Source: Escherichia coli (GTDB lineage: Bacteria > Pseudomonadota > Gammaproteobacteria > Enterobacterales > Enterobacteriaceae). From it: DNA of 64,000 nucleotides. The stretch lies in NCBI RefSeq assembly GCF_003790525.1, contig NZ_CP033635.1, one strand, 5' to 3'. Below the pieces are notes generated by a model. That model was not told where the DNA came from and did not search any database. It saw only the letters and a program-made list of their open reading frames with translations. The position numbers and the translations under genes were made by a program. Shown here piece after piece: positions 7,663-16,940 of the stretch (positions are counted from its first letter, which is position 1; every line of letters begins with the position of its first letter).

Positions 7663-9351
7663 ATGAGTGGTGAAAAAAAGGCGAAAGGCTGGCGGTTCTA
7701 TGGTCTTGTAGGTTTGGGCGCAATAGTACTGCTTTCCGCTGGCGTCTGGGCGTTGCAATATGCTGGCAGTGGGCCAGAAAAAACGTTGTCGCCGCTGGTG
7801 GTGCACAACAATCTGCAAATCGATCTCAATGAGCCGGACCTCTTTCTCGACAGCGACTCTCTGAGCCAGCTTCCCAAAGACCTCCTTACCATTCCGTTTC
7901 TCCACGATGTTCTGAGTGAAGATTTCGTTTTCTATTATCAGAATCATGCCGATCGTCTGGGCATTGAAGGCAGCATTCGCCGCATTGTCTACGAACACGA
8001 TCTCACACTAAAAGATAAGCTCTTTTCGTCACTCTTAGATCAGCCCGCGCAGGCGGCGCTATGGCACGATAAACAAGGCCATCTTTCTCATTATATGGTG
8101 CTGATCCAGCGAAGTGGTTTAAGCAAGCTGCTGGAGCCATTGCTGTTTGCCGCTACCAGCGACAGCCAGTTAAGTAAAACGGAAATCAGTAGTATTAAGC
8201 TAAATAGTGAAACCATCCCGGTTTATCAGTTGCGCTATAACGGCAATAACGCCCTGATGTTCGCAACTTATCAGGACAAGATGCTGGTATTTTCCAGCAC
8301 GGATATGCTGTTTAAAGATGATCAGCAGGATACCGAAGCCACGGCGATCGCAAGTGATTTGTTGAGCGGTAAAAAACGCTGGCAAGCCAGCTTTGGCCTG
8401 GAAGAGCGTGCTGCTGAAAAAACGCCAGTACGCCAGCGCATCGTGGTCAGCGCCAGGTTGCTGGGGTTTGGCTACCAGCGATTAATGCCTTCTTTTGCTG
8501 GCGTACGCTTCGAAATGAGCAACGACAGCTGGCATAGCTTTGTGGCGTTAAATGATGAATCCGCCAGCGTAGATGCCAGTTTCGATTTTACGCCGGTATG
8601 GAACAGTATGCCTGCCGGGGCCAGCTTCTGTGTGGCGGTGCCGTATTCGCATGGTATTGCCGAAGAGATGCTTTCGCACATCAGCCAGGAAAACGACAAG
8701 CTGAACGGGGCGTTAGATGGTGCAGCCGGGCTGTGCTGGTATGAAGATTCAAAATTGCAAACTCCGCTGTTTGTCGGTCAGTTTGATGGTTCTGCCGAAC
8801 AAGTGCAATTGCCAGGAAAACTGTTTACGCAAAATATTGGTGCGCACGAAAGCAAAGCGCCAGAAGGTGTTTTGCCGGTAAACCAGACTCAGCAGGGCGA
8901 AGCGCAAATCTGGCGTCGCGAAGTGAGTTCCCGATACGGCCAGTATCCGAAAGCGCAGGCGGCGCAACCCGATCAATTAATGTCGGATTATTTTTTCCGC
9001 GTGTCGCTGGCGATGCAAAACAAAACGCTGCTTTTCTCCCTCGATGACACGCTGGTTAATAACGCGCTGCAAACACTGAATAAAACCCGCCCGGCAATGG
9101 TGGATGTGATACCCACTGAAGGCATCGTTCCGCTCTATATCAATCCACAAGGCGTGGCGAAACTGCTGCGTAACGAAACGCTGACCAGTTTGCCGAAGAA
9201 TCTCGAACCGGTTTTTTATAACGCCGCACAAACTTTATTAATGCCGAAGCTGGACGCTTTATCTCAACAACCGCGTTATGTCATGAAGCTGGCCCAGATG
9301 GAACCCGGTGCCGCCTGGCAGTGGCTACCCATAACCTGGCAGCCGCTATGA
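7663..9351 (+). CDS. yfaA: YfaA, DUF2138-family protein with N-terminal signal-anchor (562 aa)
   Basis: Matches the K-12 YfaA length when started at MSGEKK; hydrophobic N-terminal segment; first gene of the alpha-2-macroglobulin operon; stop overlaps the yfaT start (ATGA). Confidence 0.85.
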
Positions 9352-9971
9352 GGCACGGACTGCTGGCGCTGATTTGCTGGCTGTGTTGTGTTGTTGCCCA
9401 TAGCGAAATGCTGAATGTCGAACAATCCGGGCTGTTTCGCGCGTGGTTTGTACGCATTGCACAGGAACAGCTCCGCCAGGGGCCAAGTCCGCGCTGGTAT
9501 CAGCAGGATTGTGCGGGCCTGGTGCGATTTTCGGCGAACGAGGCGCTGAAAATTCACGACAGCAAATGGCTAAAAAGTAACGGTATAGCAAGTCAATATT
9601 TGCCGCCTGAAATGACGCTAACACCTGAACAGCGTCAACTGGCGCAAAACTGGAATCATGGGAACGGAAAAACTGGCCCCTATGTGACCGCGATTAATTT
9701 GATTCAGTACAACAGCCAATTTATTGGCCAGGACATAAACCAGGCGCTGCCTGGCGATATGATTTTTTTCGATCAGGGCGATGCCCAGCACTTAATGGTC
9801 TGGATGGGGCGTTACGTCATCTACCACACCGGAAGCGCCACGAAAACTGACAACGGAATGCGCGCAGTCAGTCTGCAACAACTTATGACATGGAAGGACA
9901 CCCGATGGATACCCAACGATTCCAATCCCAATTTCATTGGCATTTATCGTTTAAATTTTCTGGCGCGATAG
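9348..9971 (+). CDS. yfaT: YfaT, DUF1175-family secreted protein (207 aa) with a Cys...His motif pair resembling papain-like/NlpC-P60 folds
   Basis: Signal peptide [15 protein letters not shown]; [10 protein letters not shown] (Cys55) and a downstream HLMVWMG; translationally coupled to yfaA. Confidence 0.8.
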
Positions 9972-16159: not shown

Positions 16160-16163
16160 TGCT

Positions 16164-16940
16164 ATGCGAAAGATTTTTCTTCCGTTGTTACTGGTGGCGC
16201 TTTCGCCTGTCGCTCACAGTGAAGGTGTGCAGGAAGTCGAGATTGATGCACCGCTCTCTGGCTGGCATCCGGCAGAGGGCGAAGATGCCAGTTTTTCACA
16301 ATCGATCAATTACCCGGCGTCGTCCGTCAACATGGCAGATGATCAAAATATCTCAGCGCAGATCCGCGGCAAAATAAAGAATTATGCTGCGGCGGGTAAA
16401 GTTCAGCAGGGCCGGCTGGTGGTCAACGGTGCCAGTATGCCGCAGAGAATTGAATCCGATGGTTCATTTGCACGCCCTTATATTTTCACGGAAGGCAGCA
16501 ACAGCGTGCAGGTCATCAGCCCGGATGGGCAAAGCCGGCAAAAAATGCAGTTTTACTCAACGCCGGGTGCTGGAGTGATCCGCGCGCGTTTACGACTGGT
16601 TCTCTCGTGGGATACGGACGATACCGACCTCGACCTTCACGTTGTTACGCCCGATGGCGAACACGCCTGGTACGGTAACACCGTGCTGAACAACAGTGGT
16701 GCACTGGATATGGATGTCACGACGGGGTACGGCCCCGAGATTTTCGCCATGCCAGCGCCAGTTCACGGGCGCTATCAGGTGTATATCAACTACTATGGCG
16801 GACGCAGCGAAACGGAATTAACCACCGCCCAACTGACGCTGATCACCGATGAAGGATCGGTCAATGAGAAACAGGAAACATTTATTGTACCGATGCGTAA
16901 TGCTGGCGAGCTGACGCTGGTGAAAAGTTTTGACTGGTGA
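16164..16940 (+). CDS. yfaP: YfaP, DUF2135-family secreted protein (258 aa)
   Basis: Signal peptide LPLLLVALSPVAHS; last gene of the operon; same length as K-12 YfaP. Confidence 0.85.
   Translation: MRKIFLPLLLVALSPVAHSEGVQEVEIDAPLSGWHPAEGEDASFSQSINYPASSVNMADDQNISAQIRGKIKNYAAAGKVQQGRLVVNGASMPQRIESDGSFARPYIFTEGSNSVQVISPDGQSRQKMQFYSTPGAGVIRARLRLVLSWDTDDTDLDLHVVTPDGEHAWYGNTVLNNSGALDMDVTTGYGPEIFAMPAPVHGRYQVYINYYGGRSETELTTAQLTLITDEGSVNEKQETFIVPMRNAGELTLVKSFDW

What the first reader, a model, noticed from the sequence alone, without database searches (positions are those of the whole stretch)
7663..16940. Intact five-gene alpha-2-macroglobulin operon (yfaA-yfaT-yfaS-yfaQ-yfaP); yfaS is full length and thioester-less
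All five genes are contiguous and tightly coupled (ATGA overlap yfaA/yfaT; yfaT/yfaS overlap; GTG start of yfaQ directly after the yfaS stop; 4-bp gap before yfaP). Every product carries an N-terminal signal or anchor sequence, so the whole assembly is periplasmic or envelope-associated. yfaS is one uninterrupted ORF of about 1535 codons, whereas K-12 has a frameshifted pseudogene as I recall, so this strain could express the complete system. I found no CxEQ thioester motif in YfaS, placing it in the non-covalent class of bacterial alpha-2-macroglobulins. YfaT has a Cys...His pair (QQDCAGLV ... HLMVWMG) reminiscent of papain-like/NlpC-P60 hydrolases, suggesting an enzymatic partner to the protease trap. 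The function of this conserved five-protein set is still poorly defined.
Basis: partly seen in the sequence, partly recalled or inferred. Interest (0 to 1): 0.6.

Follow-up and report, generated by a model that had tools for sequence, protein, structure and literature searches.

The report
E. coli type II macroglobulin operon
This is an intact copy of the yfaA-yfaT-yfaS-yfaQ-yfaP operon that nearly every E. coli carries, the counterpart of the studied Pseudomonas Mag system (a membrane-tethered periplasmic protease trap without a thioester, plus cell-wall-directed partners), so it is real but already described.

Summary
Five intact, tightly packed + strand genes lie between gyrA and atoB: yfaA 7663-9351, yfaT 9348-9971, yfaS 9905-14509, yfaQ 14510-16159 and yfaP 16164-16940. 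The window is E. coli chromosome. The operon matches 5425 of 5426 complete genomes, so an intact copy is normal.

K-12 yfaS is a pseudogene, but through one in-frame TGG>TGA nonsense at Trp1368, not a frameshift. That allele sits in 364 genomes, mostly K-12 laboratory strains.

YfaS has no CxEQ. The CLEQ of the E. coli thioester macroglobulin YfhM aligns with G-V-I-N (1069-1072). This absence defines the published "type II" class (Pseudomonas MagD).

The operon equals magBCDEF without magA. YfaT is 73% identical to the MagC crystal structure (7BK8), which is NlpC/P60-like. Cys55-His148-His160 are conserved, but the family is reported as inactive and peptidoglycan-binding.

YfaQ (MagE) has a PBP/beta-lactamase-like domain and a SpoIID-like domain, an architecture reported in 2025. 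I add invariant SxxK, KT and Glu334, and an invariant C-terminal HExxH that the papers I read do not mention.

Verdict: already known, low interest. One modest new lead is that YfaQ may be the enzymatic core of the system.

The parts
7534..7551 (+). Terminator-like hairpin after gyrA. It marks the upstream boundary of the operon. No sigma-70 consensus promoter was found between it and yfaA.
7663..9351 (+). yfaA (562 aa), DUF2138, orthologue of MagB. It has an N-terminal membrane anchor at about aa 12-32 (window 7696-7758). Predicted role: inner-membrane tether and stabiliser of the macroglobulin.
9348..9971 (+). yfaT (207 aa), DUF1175/MagC family with an NlpC/P60-like fold and a signal peptide. 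The Cys55 (9510-9512), His148 (9789-9791), His160 (9825-9827) triad is conserved with MagC.
   Evidence: PDB 7BK8 MagC E=4e-102, 73% identity over 186 aa. Pfam DUF1175 E=6e-58 and NLPC_P60 E=1.3e-3.
9905..14509 (+). yfaS (1534 aa from ATG 9905), a type II (thioester-less) bacterial alpha-2-macroglobulin, orthologue of MagD. The signal peptide runs to Ala38 (9905-10018).
   Evidence: Uninterrupted ORF. Pfam MG2 344-440, A2M_BRD 661-806, A2M 871-953, bMG10 1409-1517. 54-56% identity to the macroglobulins of Metapseudomonas and Serratia operons.
12455..12475 (+). Bait-region core T851-N-R-S-E-R-R857 of YfaS, matching the MagD bait sequence ANRSERG. The wider loop is 842-874 (window 12428-12526).
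   Evidence: Alignment A5; coordinates. The MagD bait 847-853 was defined in PMC5764988.
13109..13120 (+). G1069-V-I-N1072, the position homologous to the CLEQ thioester motif of YfhM/ECAM. The thioester Cys is replaced by Gly.
   Evidence: Alignment A5: YfhM YPYGCLEQTAS against Yfa[12 protein letters not shown]. The Metapseudomonas protein has GGVEQ and the Serratia protein GGVIN.
14006..14008 (+). Trp1368 codon TGG, which is TGA in K-12 MG1655 (pseudogene b4500). The K-12 product would lack the last 167 aa, including the bMG10 domain.
   Evidence: Allele counts: TGG 30-mer in 4302 genomes, TGA 30-mer in 364 of 5426.
14510..16159 (+). yfaQ (549 aa, GTG start), orthologue of MagE. Signal peptide, then a PBP/serine-beta-lactamase-like domain (about aa 22-250, window 14573-15259) with S60-x-x-K63 (14687-14698), S108-C109-G (14831-14839) and K195-T196-W (15092-15100). 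Next comes a SpoIID-like domain (about aa 256-445) with Glu334 (15509-15511). The C-terminal module carries H520-E-Y-L-H524 (16067-16081) and Glu536.
16164..16940 (+). yfaP (258 aa), YfaP/DUF2135 family, orthologue of MagF, with a signal peptide. The YfaP_C domain covers aa 199-244 (16758-16895). Predicted 1:1 binding partner of the macroglobulin.
   Evidence: Pfam DUF2135 E=6e-17. No PDB relative by profile search. MagF binding data come from PMC5764988.
16980..17001 (.). GC-rich hairpin between the convergent yfaP and atoB genes, with T-runs on both strands. It is the likely 3' end of the operon.

Best explanation
The locus is the E. coli orthologue of the Pseudomonas aeruginosa Mag system, in its five-gene enterobacterial form (magBCDEF, without magA).

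Inferred from the orthologues:
- YfaS is exported by a cleavable signal peptide and held at the periplasmic face of the inner membrane by the single-pass protein YfaA (MagB).
- YfaP (MagF) binds YfaS 1:1.
- YfaS has an exposed bait loop (TNRSERR). When an incoming protease cuts the loop, the macroglobulin closes around the enzyme and holds it non-covalently. The thioester Cys is a Gly, so no covalent bond can form.
- YfaT (MagC) is an NlpC/P60-fold protein that ties the complex to peptidoglycan.
- YfaQ (MagE) is a secreted protein built from a PBP/beta-lactamase-like domain, a SpoIID-like glycan-strand-cleaving domain and an HExxH module. It links the trap to cell-wall sensing or remodelling, and possibly to processing of the macroglobulin.
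- The net function is to guard the periplasm and cell wall against foreign hydrolases, such as host proteases and peptidoglycan-targeting type VI effectors.

Shown here: gene structure, orthology, loss of the thioester motif, conservation of the bait, and the folds and invariant residues of YfaQ.

Not tested in E. coli: localisation, trapping, complex formation and the protective role.
For: - Intact, coupled genes.
- The same gene order with the same Pfam families occurs in Metapseudomonas (six genes), and in Serratia and Salmonella (five genes).
- YfaT is 73% identical to the MagC crystal structure.
- YfaS has MG2, A2M_BRD, A2M and bMG10 domains.
- CLEQ of YfhM aligns to GVIN, and the bait core NRSER is the same as the MagD bait sequence ANRSERG.
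- N-terminal anchor or signal sequences are present on all five products.
- Literature on the orthologues: MagD is periplasmic and inner-membrane-associated through MagB, and it binds MagA, MagB and MagF. After its bait was replaced by a TEV recognition site, it trapped TEV protease non-covalently (PMC3735191, PMC5764988).
- MagD protects against the peptidoglycan-targeting type VI effectors VgrG3 and Tae1 (PMC12663445).
- DUF1175 is described as binding peptidoglycan (PMC10318531).
- YfaQ folds and invariant motifs.
- An E. coli yfaQ deletion gives wider cells and a phenotype profile resembling mepS, mepK and nlpI mutants (bioRxiv 10.1101/2025.02.11.637708).
Against: - Nothing about the E. 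coli proteins was tested here beyond sequence and predicted structure.
- E. coli lacks MagA.
- No sigma-70 consensus promoter was found upstream of yfaA, and a YfaQ-msfGFP fusion gave no signal in laboratory media, so expression conditions are unknown.
- K-12 lives without full-length YfaS.
- In Pseudomonas, MagE fractionated with the cytoplasm and did not co-purify with MagD. That fits poorly with a periplasmic enzyme in the complex.
- MagD trapping was shown only for an engineered TEV bait, and the natural target enzymes are unknown.
- In YfaQ the third residue of two PBP motifs differs from the canon (S-C-G instead of SxN, K-T-W/F instead of KTG), so catalysis is not assured.
Confidence: 0.6

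Rival explanations
1. The operon is mainly a peptidoglycan maintenance or remodelling machine. YfaQ (transpeptidase-like plus SpoIID-like) and YfaT (NlpC/P60-like) are the working parts. The macroglobulin serves as a scaffold or regulator, not as a protease trap.
For: - Catalytic-type residues of YfaQ are invariant across 58 divergent representatives.
- YfaQ matches the SpoIID and PBP/beta-lactamase folds.
- The yfaQ deletion phenotype (wider cells, profile similar to mepS/mepK/nlpI mutants) was seen in a K-12 background where yfaS is truncated.
- MagD protects against peptidoglycan-targeting effectors, not proteases.
- The thioester class of bacterial macroglobulin is likewise paired with a cell-wall enzyme, PbpC.
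Against: - MagD does trap a protease after bait cleavage, and chymotrypsin, trypsin and papain all cut its bait region.
- The bait core is conserved in YfaS.
- MagC is reported as catalytically inactive.
- Variant SxN and KTG motifs in YfaQ leave its activity open.
Confidence: 0.2
2. The operon is a colonisation factor aimed only at host proteases, such as gut and neutrophil serine proteases. This is the original idea for bacterial macroglobulins acquired from animals.
For: - The Arg/Lys-rich bait loop is cleavable by trypsin-like enzymes.
- Pseudomonas mag mutants are attenuated in infection models (PMC3735191).
- The operon is kept in about 98% of E. coli genomes.
Against: - The bait is well conserved between E. 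coli, Serratia and pseudomonads, whereas broad-spectrum baits are expected to vary.
- The operon also occurs in environmental pseudomonads, and at least its 3' part (the yfaQ and yfaP homologues, at the end of a contig) in a Methylobacter assembly.
- The type VI data point to bacterial antagonists.
- This idea does not explain the cell-wall-directed partners.
Confidence: 0.1
3. In E. coli the locus is mostly silent cargo and contributes little under normal conditions. It was inherited or horizontally acquired and is slowly decaying in some lineages.
For: - K-12 has a nonsense allele.
- An O55:H7 strain has an IS insertion in yfaS (H20).
- About 250 genomes lack most of the region.
- No consensus promoter was found.
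- No YfaQ-GFP signal was seen.
Against: - All five ORFs are intact here, and the region is present in 5178 of 5426 genomes at 80% coverage or more.
- The TGG allele is present in at least 4302 genomes.
- Catalytic-type residues are strictly conserved in the family.
- A yfaQ deletion has a measurable phenotype.
Confidence: 0.07

Closest known systems
Pseudomonas aeruginosa MagABCDEF (PA4492-PA4487), the type II alpha-2-macroglobulin complex
   Same: - Same gene order and families for magB-F: DUF2138, DUF1175/MagC, thioester-less A2M, DUF2300, DUF2135.
- YfaT is 73% identical to MagC.
- Same bait core (NRSER).
- Same 67-nt overlap between the MagC-type and MagD-type genes in a Metapseudomonas operon of the same six-gene type.
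- Signal peptides on all products except the membrane-anchored MagB/YfaA.
   Different: - E. coli has five genes and lacks the first gene, magA, a paralogue of magF.
- In YfaS the thioester position reads GVIN, against GVEQ in the Metapseudomonas protein I aligned. The P. aeruginosa MagD sequence itself was not aligned here.
- YfaS has four Cys, whereas MagD is reported to have none.
- No experimental data exist for the E. coli complex.
E. coli YfhM (ECAM) with PbpC, and Salmonella A2M: type I bacterial alpha-2-macroglobulins
   Same: Multi-MG-domain architecture with a bait region and a thioester-type domain. Both are periplasmic and inner-membrane-associated, and both are genetically paired with a penicillin-binding-fold protein.
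   Different: YfhM has CLEQ and a lipobox and is adjacent to pbpC. YfaS is only 19% identical to it. YfaS has Gly in place of the thioester Cys, an SPase I-type signal peptide and four different partner genes.
BlaR1/MecR1 (M56 zinc protease domain plus class D beta-lactamase-like sensor domain)
SpoIID lytic transglycosylase of the sporulation engulfment machinery (SpoIID-SpoIIM-SpoIIP)
   Different: The host is a Gram-negative, non-sporulating organism. The SpoIID-like domain is fused to a PBP-like domain and an HExxH tail. The partner YfaT/MagC is reported inactive.

Membership tests
Type II (thioester-less) bacterial alpha-2-macroglobulin, MagD/YfaS class | Macroglobulin domain set: MG domains, bait-region domain, A2M domain | tested here: met
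   Pfam MG2 E=5e-19, A2M_BRD E=3e-17, A2M E=5e-12, bMG10 E=1e-5.
Type II (thioester-less) bacterial alpha-2-macroglobulin, MagD/YfaS class | No CxEQ at the position homologous to the thioester | tested here: met
   There is no C-x-E-Q or C-x-x-Q in the protein. YfhM GCLEQ aligns with GGVIN at 1068-1072.
Type II (thioester-less) bacterial alpha-2-macroglobulin, MagD/YfaS class | Operon with DUF2138, DUF1175, DUF2300 and DUF2135 genes instead of pbpC | tested here: met
   The same order occurs in other genera.
Type II (thioester-less) bacterial alpha-2-macroglobulin, MagD/YfaS class | Signal peptide without a lipoprotein anchor | tested here: inconclusive
   The h-region is followed by ANA|DD, as in orthologues. 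However, I22-A-A-C25 inside the h-region formally fits a lipobox pattern, and no lipoprotein predictor was available.
Type II (thioester-less) bacterial alpha-2-macroglobulin, MagD/YfaS class | Non-covalent retention of a protease after bait cleavage | not testable with these tools
   Shown only for MagD with an engineered TEV bait (PMC5764988).
Type I bacterial alpha-2-macroglobulin (ECAM/YfhM) | CxEQ thioester, lipobox and a pbpC neighbour | tested here: not met
   YfaS is not a member.
NlpC/P60 (papain-like) superfamily, DUF1175/MagC branch (YfaT) | Fold, and Cys-His-His/polar triad in the canonical order and spacing | tested here: met
   E=4e-102 to the MagC structure 7BK8. Cys55, His148 and His160 are present, with 12 residues between the two His. 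The Pfam NLPC_P60 hit is weak, E=1.3e-3.
NlpC/P60 (papain-like) superfamily, DUF1175/MagC branch (YfaT) | Peptidoglycan endopeptidase or amidase activity | not testable with these tools
   The literature classes DUF1175 as inactive but peptidoglycan-binding (PMC10318531).
SpoIID/LytB lytic transglycosylase (YfaQ, aa about 256-445) | SpoIID fold with a conserved catalytic Glu | tested here: met
Penicillin-binding / serine beta-lactamase superfamily (YfaQ, aa about 22-250) | Fold plus the SxxK, SxN and KTG motifs | tested here: inconclusive
Zincin/gluzincin metallopeptidases (YfaQ, aa about 500-549) | HExxH on a helix, a downstream Glu ligand, and a recognisable peptidase fold | tested here: inconclusive
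Known anti-phage defence systems | Match to any PADLOC model | tested here: not met
   No hit for any of the five proteins.

The most novel reading that the evidence does not exclude
YfaQ/MagE is the enzymatic core of type II macroglobulin systems, not a chaperone. It would be a secreted three-module protein: a PBP-like serine site (SxxK, S-C, K-T), a SpoIID-like glycan-cleaving site (Glu334), and a zinc-peptidase-like HExxH module not mentioned in any paper I read. In this reading YfaQ senses or repairs damaged peptidoglycan. Its HExxH module would carry out the partner-dependent processing of the macroglobulin (165 kDa to 100 kDa in Pseudomonas) at the unusually conserved bait loop. The whole operon would then be a cell-wall damage guard, parallel to the A2M-PbpC pair of the thioester class.
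Probability: 0.2. Interest if true: 0.6.

Novelty: already known. Interest (0 to 1): 0.25.

Why it matters
The finding itself adds nothing new. The operon, its lack of a thioester, the K-12 pseudogene and the NlpC/P60 nature of YfaT/MagC are all on record.

It does show that natural E. coli isolates carry the complete system while the laboratory K-12 lineage does not. That matters for anyone looking for a phenotype in K-12.

The side result on YfaQ could be useful. It connects two bodies of work that, in the papers I read, do not cite each other: the Pseudomonas Mag work, where MagE is treated as a possible chaperone, and the 2025 E. coli image-based deletion-phenotype screen, which saw a transpeptidase-like plus SpoIID-like protein. 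The side result adds a set of invariant catalytic-type residues that can be mutated directly. This makes the open question of what thioester-less bacterial macroglobulin systems actually do more testable.

Tried and rejected
- **Anti-phage defence system:** no PADLOC hit for any of the five proteins.
- **Internal duplication in YfaQ** (Pfam reports two DUF2300 copies): BLASTP and profile-profile comparison of the two stretches and of the two halves find nothing (hhalign probability below 1%). The predicted folds also differ, so I did not treat YfaQ as a tandem repeat.
- **Solved relative of YfaP:** a profile search of the PDB gave only a chance-level hit.
- **Sigma-70 promoter upstream of yfaA:** none at the scan threshold.
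- **Rfam:** no RNA family lies within 7400-17100.
- **Frameshift in K-12 yfaS:** rejected. The two K-12 ORFs are in the same frame and the gene length is identical.
- **Budd et al. 2004,** the original description of the two bacterial macroglobulin classes, is not held in the library. One literature search was swamped by the Yale Food Addiction Scale acronym.
- The K-12 locus file did not appear in the sandbox, so the lesion was located with the ORF listing and get_sequence instead.
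Full report
**What is there.** The window is E. coli chromosome. The stretch 7400-17100 is 100% identical to strain 165 (NZ_CP020509) and matches 5425 of 5426 complete E. 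coli genomes. In 5178 of them one match covers at least 80% of the stretch.

Between gyrA (4887-7514, +) and atoB (17014-18198, -) lie five + strand ORFs without internal stops. RefSeq annotates the same genes:

- yfaA, 7663-9351
- yfaT, 9348-9971
- yfaS, 9905-14509
- yfaQ, 14510-16159
- yfaP, 16164-16940

- ATGA overlap at 9348-9351.
- A 67-nt yfaT/yfaS overlap.
- GTG at 14510 directly after the TAA stop of yfaS.
- A 4-nt gap before yfaP.

**The yfaS start.** Three starts are possible. ATG 9905 has an AAGGA Shine-Dalgarno sequence 6 nt upstream, gives the 1534-aa product annotated for the K-12 pseudogene, and keeps a signal peptide (...GLANA|DD). ATG 9890 has no Shine-Dalgarno sequence. The GTG at 9995 chosen by the NCBI annotation pipeline for this strain would remove the hydrophobic core of the signal peptide. 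The gene callers give the same 67-nt overlap in Metapseudomonas and Salmonella operons. I take 9905 as the start.

**Export signals.** Each product has a single N-terminal hydrophobic segment. YfaA has an anchor-like helix at about residues 12-32. The other four have signal-peptide-like sequences. No dedicated predictor was available. The 2025 study of E. coli genes of unknown function reports a Sec signal peptide for YfaQ from SignalP.

**The K-12 comparison.** MG1655 annotates yfaS as pseudogene b4500, spanning 4605 nt, the same length as here. K-12 has two ORFs in the same frame, separated by a TGA. The sequence reads ...CGC TGA CGT..., where this window has ...CGC TGG CGT.... The lesion is therefore a nonsense mutation at Trp1368 (window 14006-14008), not a frameshift. 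It would remove the last 167 residues, including the bMG10 domain.

To count the two alleles I used a 30-mer with the variable base at position 28, so that megablast needs an exact match across it. The TGG allele is found in 4302 genomes. The TGA allele is found in 364, and among the 40 listed most are K-12 derivatives (MG1655, C600, DH5alpha, J53 and others). The remaining genomes differ in the flanking 27 nt or lack the gene. An intact yfaS is therefore the normal state of the species.

**YfaS is a thioester-less macroglobulin.** Pfam finds MG2 (344-440), the bait-region domain (661-806), A2M (871-953) and bMG10 (1409-1517). There is no CxEQ or CxxQ in the protein.

I aligned YfaS with the macroglobulins of a Metapseudomonas and a Serratia operon and with E. 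coli YfhM. The thioester segment of YfhM, YPYGCLEQTAS, lines up with [11 protein letters not shown] in YfaS (G1069-N1072, window 13109-13120). The Metapseudomonas protein has GGVEQ and the Serratia protein has GGVIN. The Cys is Gly in all three operon-type proteins.

This is the published definition of type II bacterial macroglobulins (PMC3735191, PMC5764988). The bait sequence of MagD, ANRSERG (residues 847-853), corresponds to TNRSERR (851-857) in YfaS. The surrounding loop is well conserved among the three type II proteins.

**Orthology with the Mag system.** The Pseudomonas operon is magABCDEF. MagA and MagF are paralogues of about 270 aa. MagB is a 589-aa protein with one transmembrane helix. 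MagC is small, MagD is the macroglobulin, and MagE is about 62 kDa.

A Metapseudomonas locus shows exactly this order by Pfam: YfaP_C, DUF2138, MagC (PF06672), A2M, DUF2300, YfaP_C. Serratia and Salmonella loci have the five-gene form without the first gene, like E. coli. So yfaATSQP corresponds to magBCDEF.

For the Pseudomonas proteins it has been shown that:

- MagD is periplasmic and bound to the inner membrane through MagB.
- MagD forms 1:1 complexes with MagA, MagB and MagF.
- MagD is processed from 165 to 100 kDa in a partner-dependent way.
- With its bait replaced by a TEV recognition site, MagD traps TEV protease non-covalently.
- MagD protects against the peptidoglycan-targeting type VI effectors VgrG3 and Tae1.

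None of this has been tested in E. coli.

**YfaT.** From my own recollection, this is the spacing of the Cys-His-His triad in the NlpC/P60 endopeptidase MepS.

YfaT matches the crystal structure of MagC (7BK8) at E=4e-102 with 73% identity. All three residues are conserved in MagC. Pfam gives DUF1175 and a weak NLPC_P60 hit.

A 2023 classification of papain-like enzymes places DUF1175 in the NlpC/P60 group as "inactive ... binding to peptidoglycan". It cites the MagC paper (Zouhir et al., FEBS Lett 2021), which I could not read in full. The fold assignment is right, but activity is unlikely or at least unproven.

**YfaQ.** This is the most informative partner.

- Pfam finds a SpoIID domain at 312-375 (E=6e-6) as well as DUF2300.
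- An AlphaFold2 model from a 30-sequence alignment has mean pLDDT 82.9.
- Foldseek independently returns class A and class D beta-lactamases and a PBP2 transpeptidase domain at E about 1e-6 to 1e-5.

The family is small: 380 clusters at 50% identity reach E<=0.001 in 1.8 billion representatives. I aligned 58 full-length representatives that are 28-49% identical to the E. coli protein. The invariant columns include:

- S60 and K63.
- C92, S108 and C109.
- K195 and T196.
- R333 and E334.
- D369, Q374 and R375.
- C452 and C488.
- H520, E521 and H524.

E536 is conserved in at least 90% of sequences.

A profile of this alignment finds three relatives in the PDB:

- SpoIID (4RWR, E=4e-4). Glu334 aligns with the Glu of the SpoIID motif VVASEM. 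From memory, that is the catalytic Glu of SpoIID.
- C. difficile PBP3 (7RD0, E=0.058). The alignment covers the SxxK motif, a Cys cluster and the S-C-N motif.
- The minimal zinc peptidase selecase (4QHJ, E=2.4, not significant). The alignment covers LAHELLHL against LTHEYLHL.

In C. difficile PBP3 the Cys of S-C-N and two other Cys bind a structural zinc next to the active site (PMC9334274). YfaQ may have a similar site, but I did not test that.

In the model, S60 begins helix 59-72 and K195-T196 lie in strand 192-201. These are the usual places for SxxK and KTG in this fold. This is my reading of the secondary structure. Two motifs are non-canonical: S-C-G instead of SxN, and K-T-W/F instead of KTG.

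YfaQ therefore has the following layout:

- A signal peptide.
- A PBP/beta-lactamase-like domain (about 22-250).
- A SpoIID-like domain (about 256-445).
- A C-terminal module with an invariant HExxH (about 450-549).

The two-domain picture is not new. [quoted passage not shown] It also reports that a yfaQ deletion gives wider cells, with a phenotype profile like mepS, mepK and nlpI mutants. That paper does not mention the macroglobulin operon, MagE, zinc or a metalloprotease motif. The Mag papers treat MagE as a possible chaperone and give no domain assignment.

The invariant-residue analysis, the HExxH module and the link between these two bodies of work are my additions. They are inferences from sequence and predicted structure only.

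YfaP has the YfaP_C/DUF2135 domain at 199-244 and no detectable solved relative.

**Mechanism.** The best-supported account is a periplasmic guard complex. YfaA tethers YfaS to the inner membrane and YfaP binds it. Cleavage of the bait by an intruding enzyme leads to non-covalent capture. YfaT attaches the assembly to peptidoglycan. YfaQ supplies cell-wall-directed binding or catalysis.

The rivals differ mainly in emphasis: a cell-wall remodelling machine, a trap for host proteases only, or silent cargo. They are listed with their evidence in the rival explanations.

Several points weigh against the main account. MagE was reported in the cytoplasm. Expression in E. coli has not been shown. 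The natural targets are unknown.

**Novelty and score.** The locus, its class, the K-12 defect and the nature of YfaT are already on record, so the finding is already known and of low interest. The residual value is the testable idea that YfaQ/MagE is an enzyme with up to three active centres.

Noticed in passing
window 9890-10018: RefSeq for this strain starts the macroglobulin gene at GTG 9995 (1504 aa), which removes the hydrophobic core of the signal peptide. ATG 9905 has a Shine-Dalgarno sequence, gives a signal peptide, and gives the same 67-nt overlap that the gene callers give for two other genera. It is the more likely start. The tetrapeptide I22-A-A-C25 inside the h-region also fits a lipobox pattern.
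   Followed up: partly
window 908-4387: Three genes lie between ubiG and gyrA: a frameshifted GntR-family regulator, an MFS transporter and a mandelate racemase/muconate lactonizing family enzyme. In K-12, ubiG and gyrA are only about 150 bp apart, so this is a roughly 4-kb strain-variable insert next to the operon.
   Followed up: partly
window 7646-7658: The yfaA ribosome-binding region reads ACACAAGGAATGT, close to the CsrA/RsmA binding consensus RUACARGGAUGU (consensus recalled from memory). The magA leader is a direct RsmA target in Pseudomonas (PMC3735191). The Serratia, Salmonella and Metapseudomonas leaders also have GGA at the Shine-Dalgarno sequence, and Serratia has four or five GGA motifs in 100 nt. 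This is weak evidence, because Shine-Dalgarno sequences often contain GGA.
   Followed up: partly
window 14759-15124 and 15743-16105 (YfaQ aa 84-205 and 412-532): Pfam reports two full-length copies of DUF2300 (E about 1e-43 and 1e-46), and K-12 annotation calls YfaQ a tandem DUF2300 protein. Profile-profile comparison of the two stretches finds no similarity (hhalign probability 0.1%), and they fall in different predicted folds. The Pfam family may mix two unrelated segments.
   Followed up: yes
window 9905-9971: The gene callers give a 67-nt yfaT/yfaS overlap of the same length in Salmonella (L009 3725-3791) and Metapseudomonas (L004 5355-5421). The conserved N-terminus of YfaS (MD..R.Q.Q...HLS) is encoded in the same DNA as the highly conserved C-terminus of YfaT, in another frame.
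   Followed up: partly
NZ_CP038383.1 (hit H20): In E. coli O55:H7 strain DEC5E the macroglobulin gene is split by an ISEc20 (IS110-like) insertion. This is a second, independent way of losing yfaS.
   Followed up: no
window 14006-14009: The K-12 stop is TGA followed by C. I recall this context as a weak, leaky terminator in E. coli, so some full-length YfaS might still be made in K-12. This was not checked.
   Followed up: no
window 39225-39713: The gene for ecotin, the other periplasmic broad-range protease inhibitor of E. coli, lies 22 kb downstream in the same window. This is probably coincidental.
   Followed up: no
window 31017-31110, 27280-27356, 55960-56033, 59749-59774: Rfam matches elsewhere in the window: MicF sRNA upstream of ompC, naRNA4 (CssrE) after rcsC, a tRNA, and the L25 ribosomal protein leader.
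   Followed up: no
L008 10001-10837 (Rhodocyclaceae MAG): A YfaP-family gene stands alone without the other operon genes within 10 kb on either side, so this family is not confined to macroglobulin operons.
   Followed up: no
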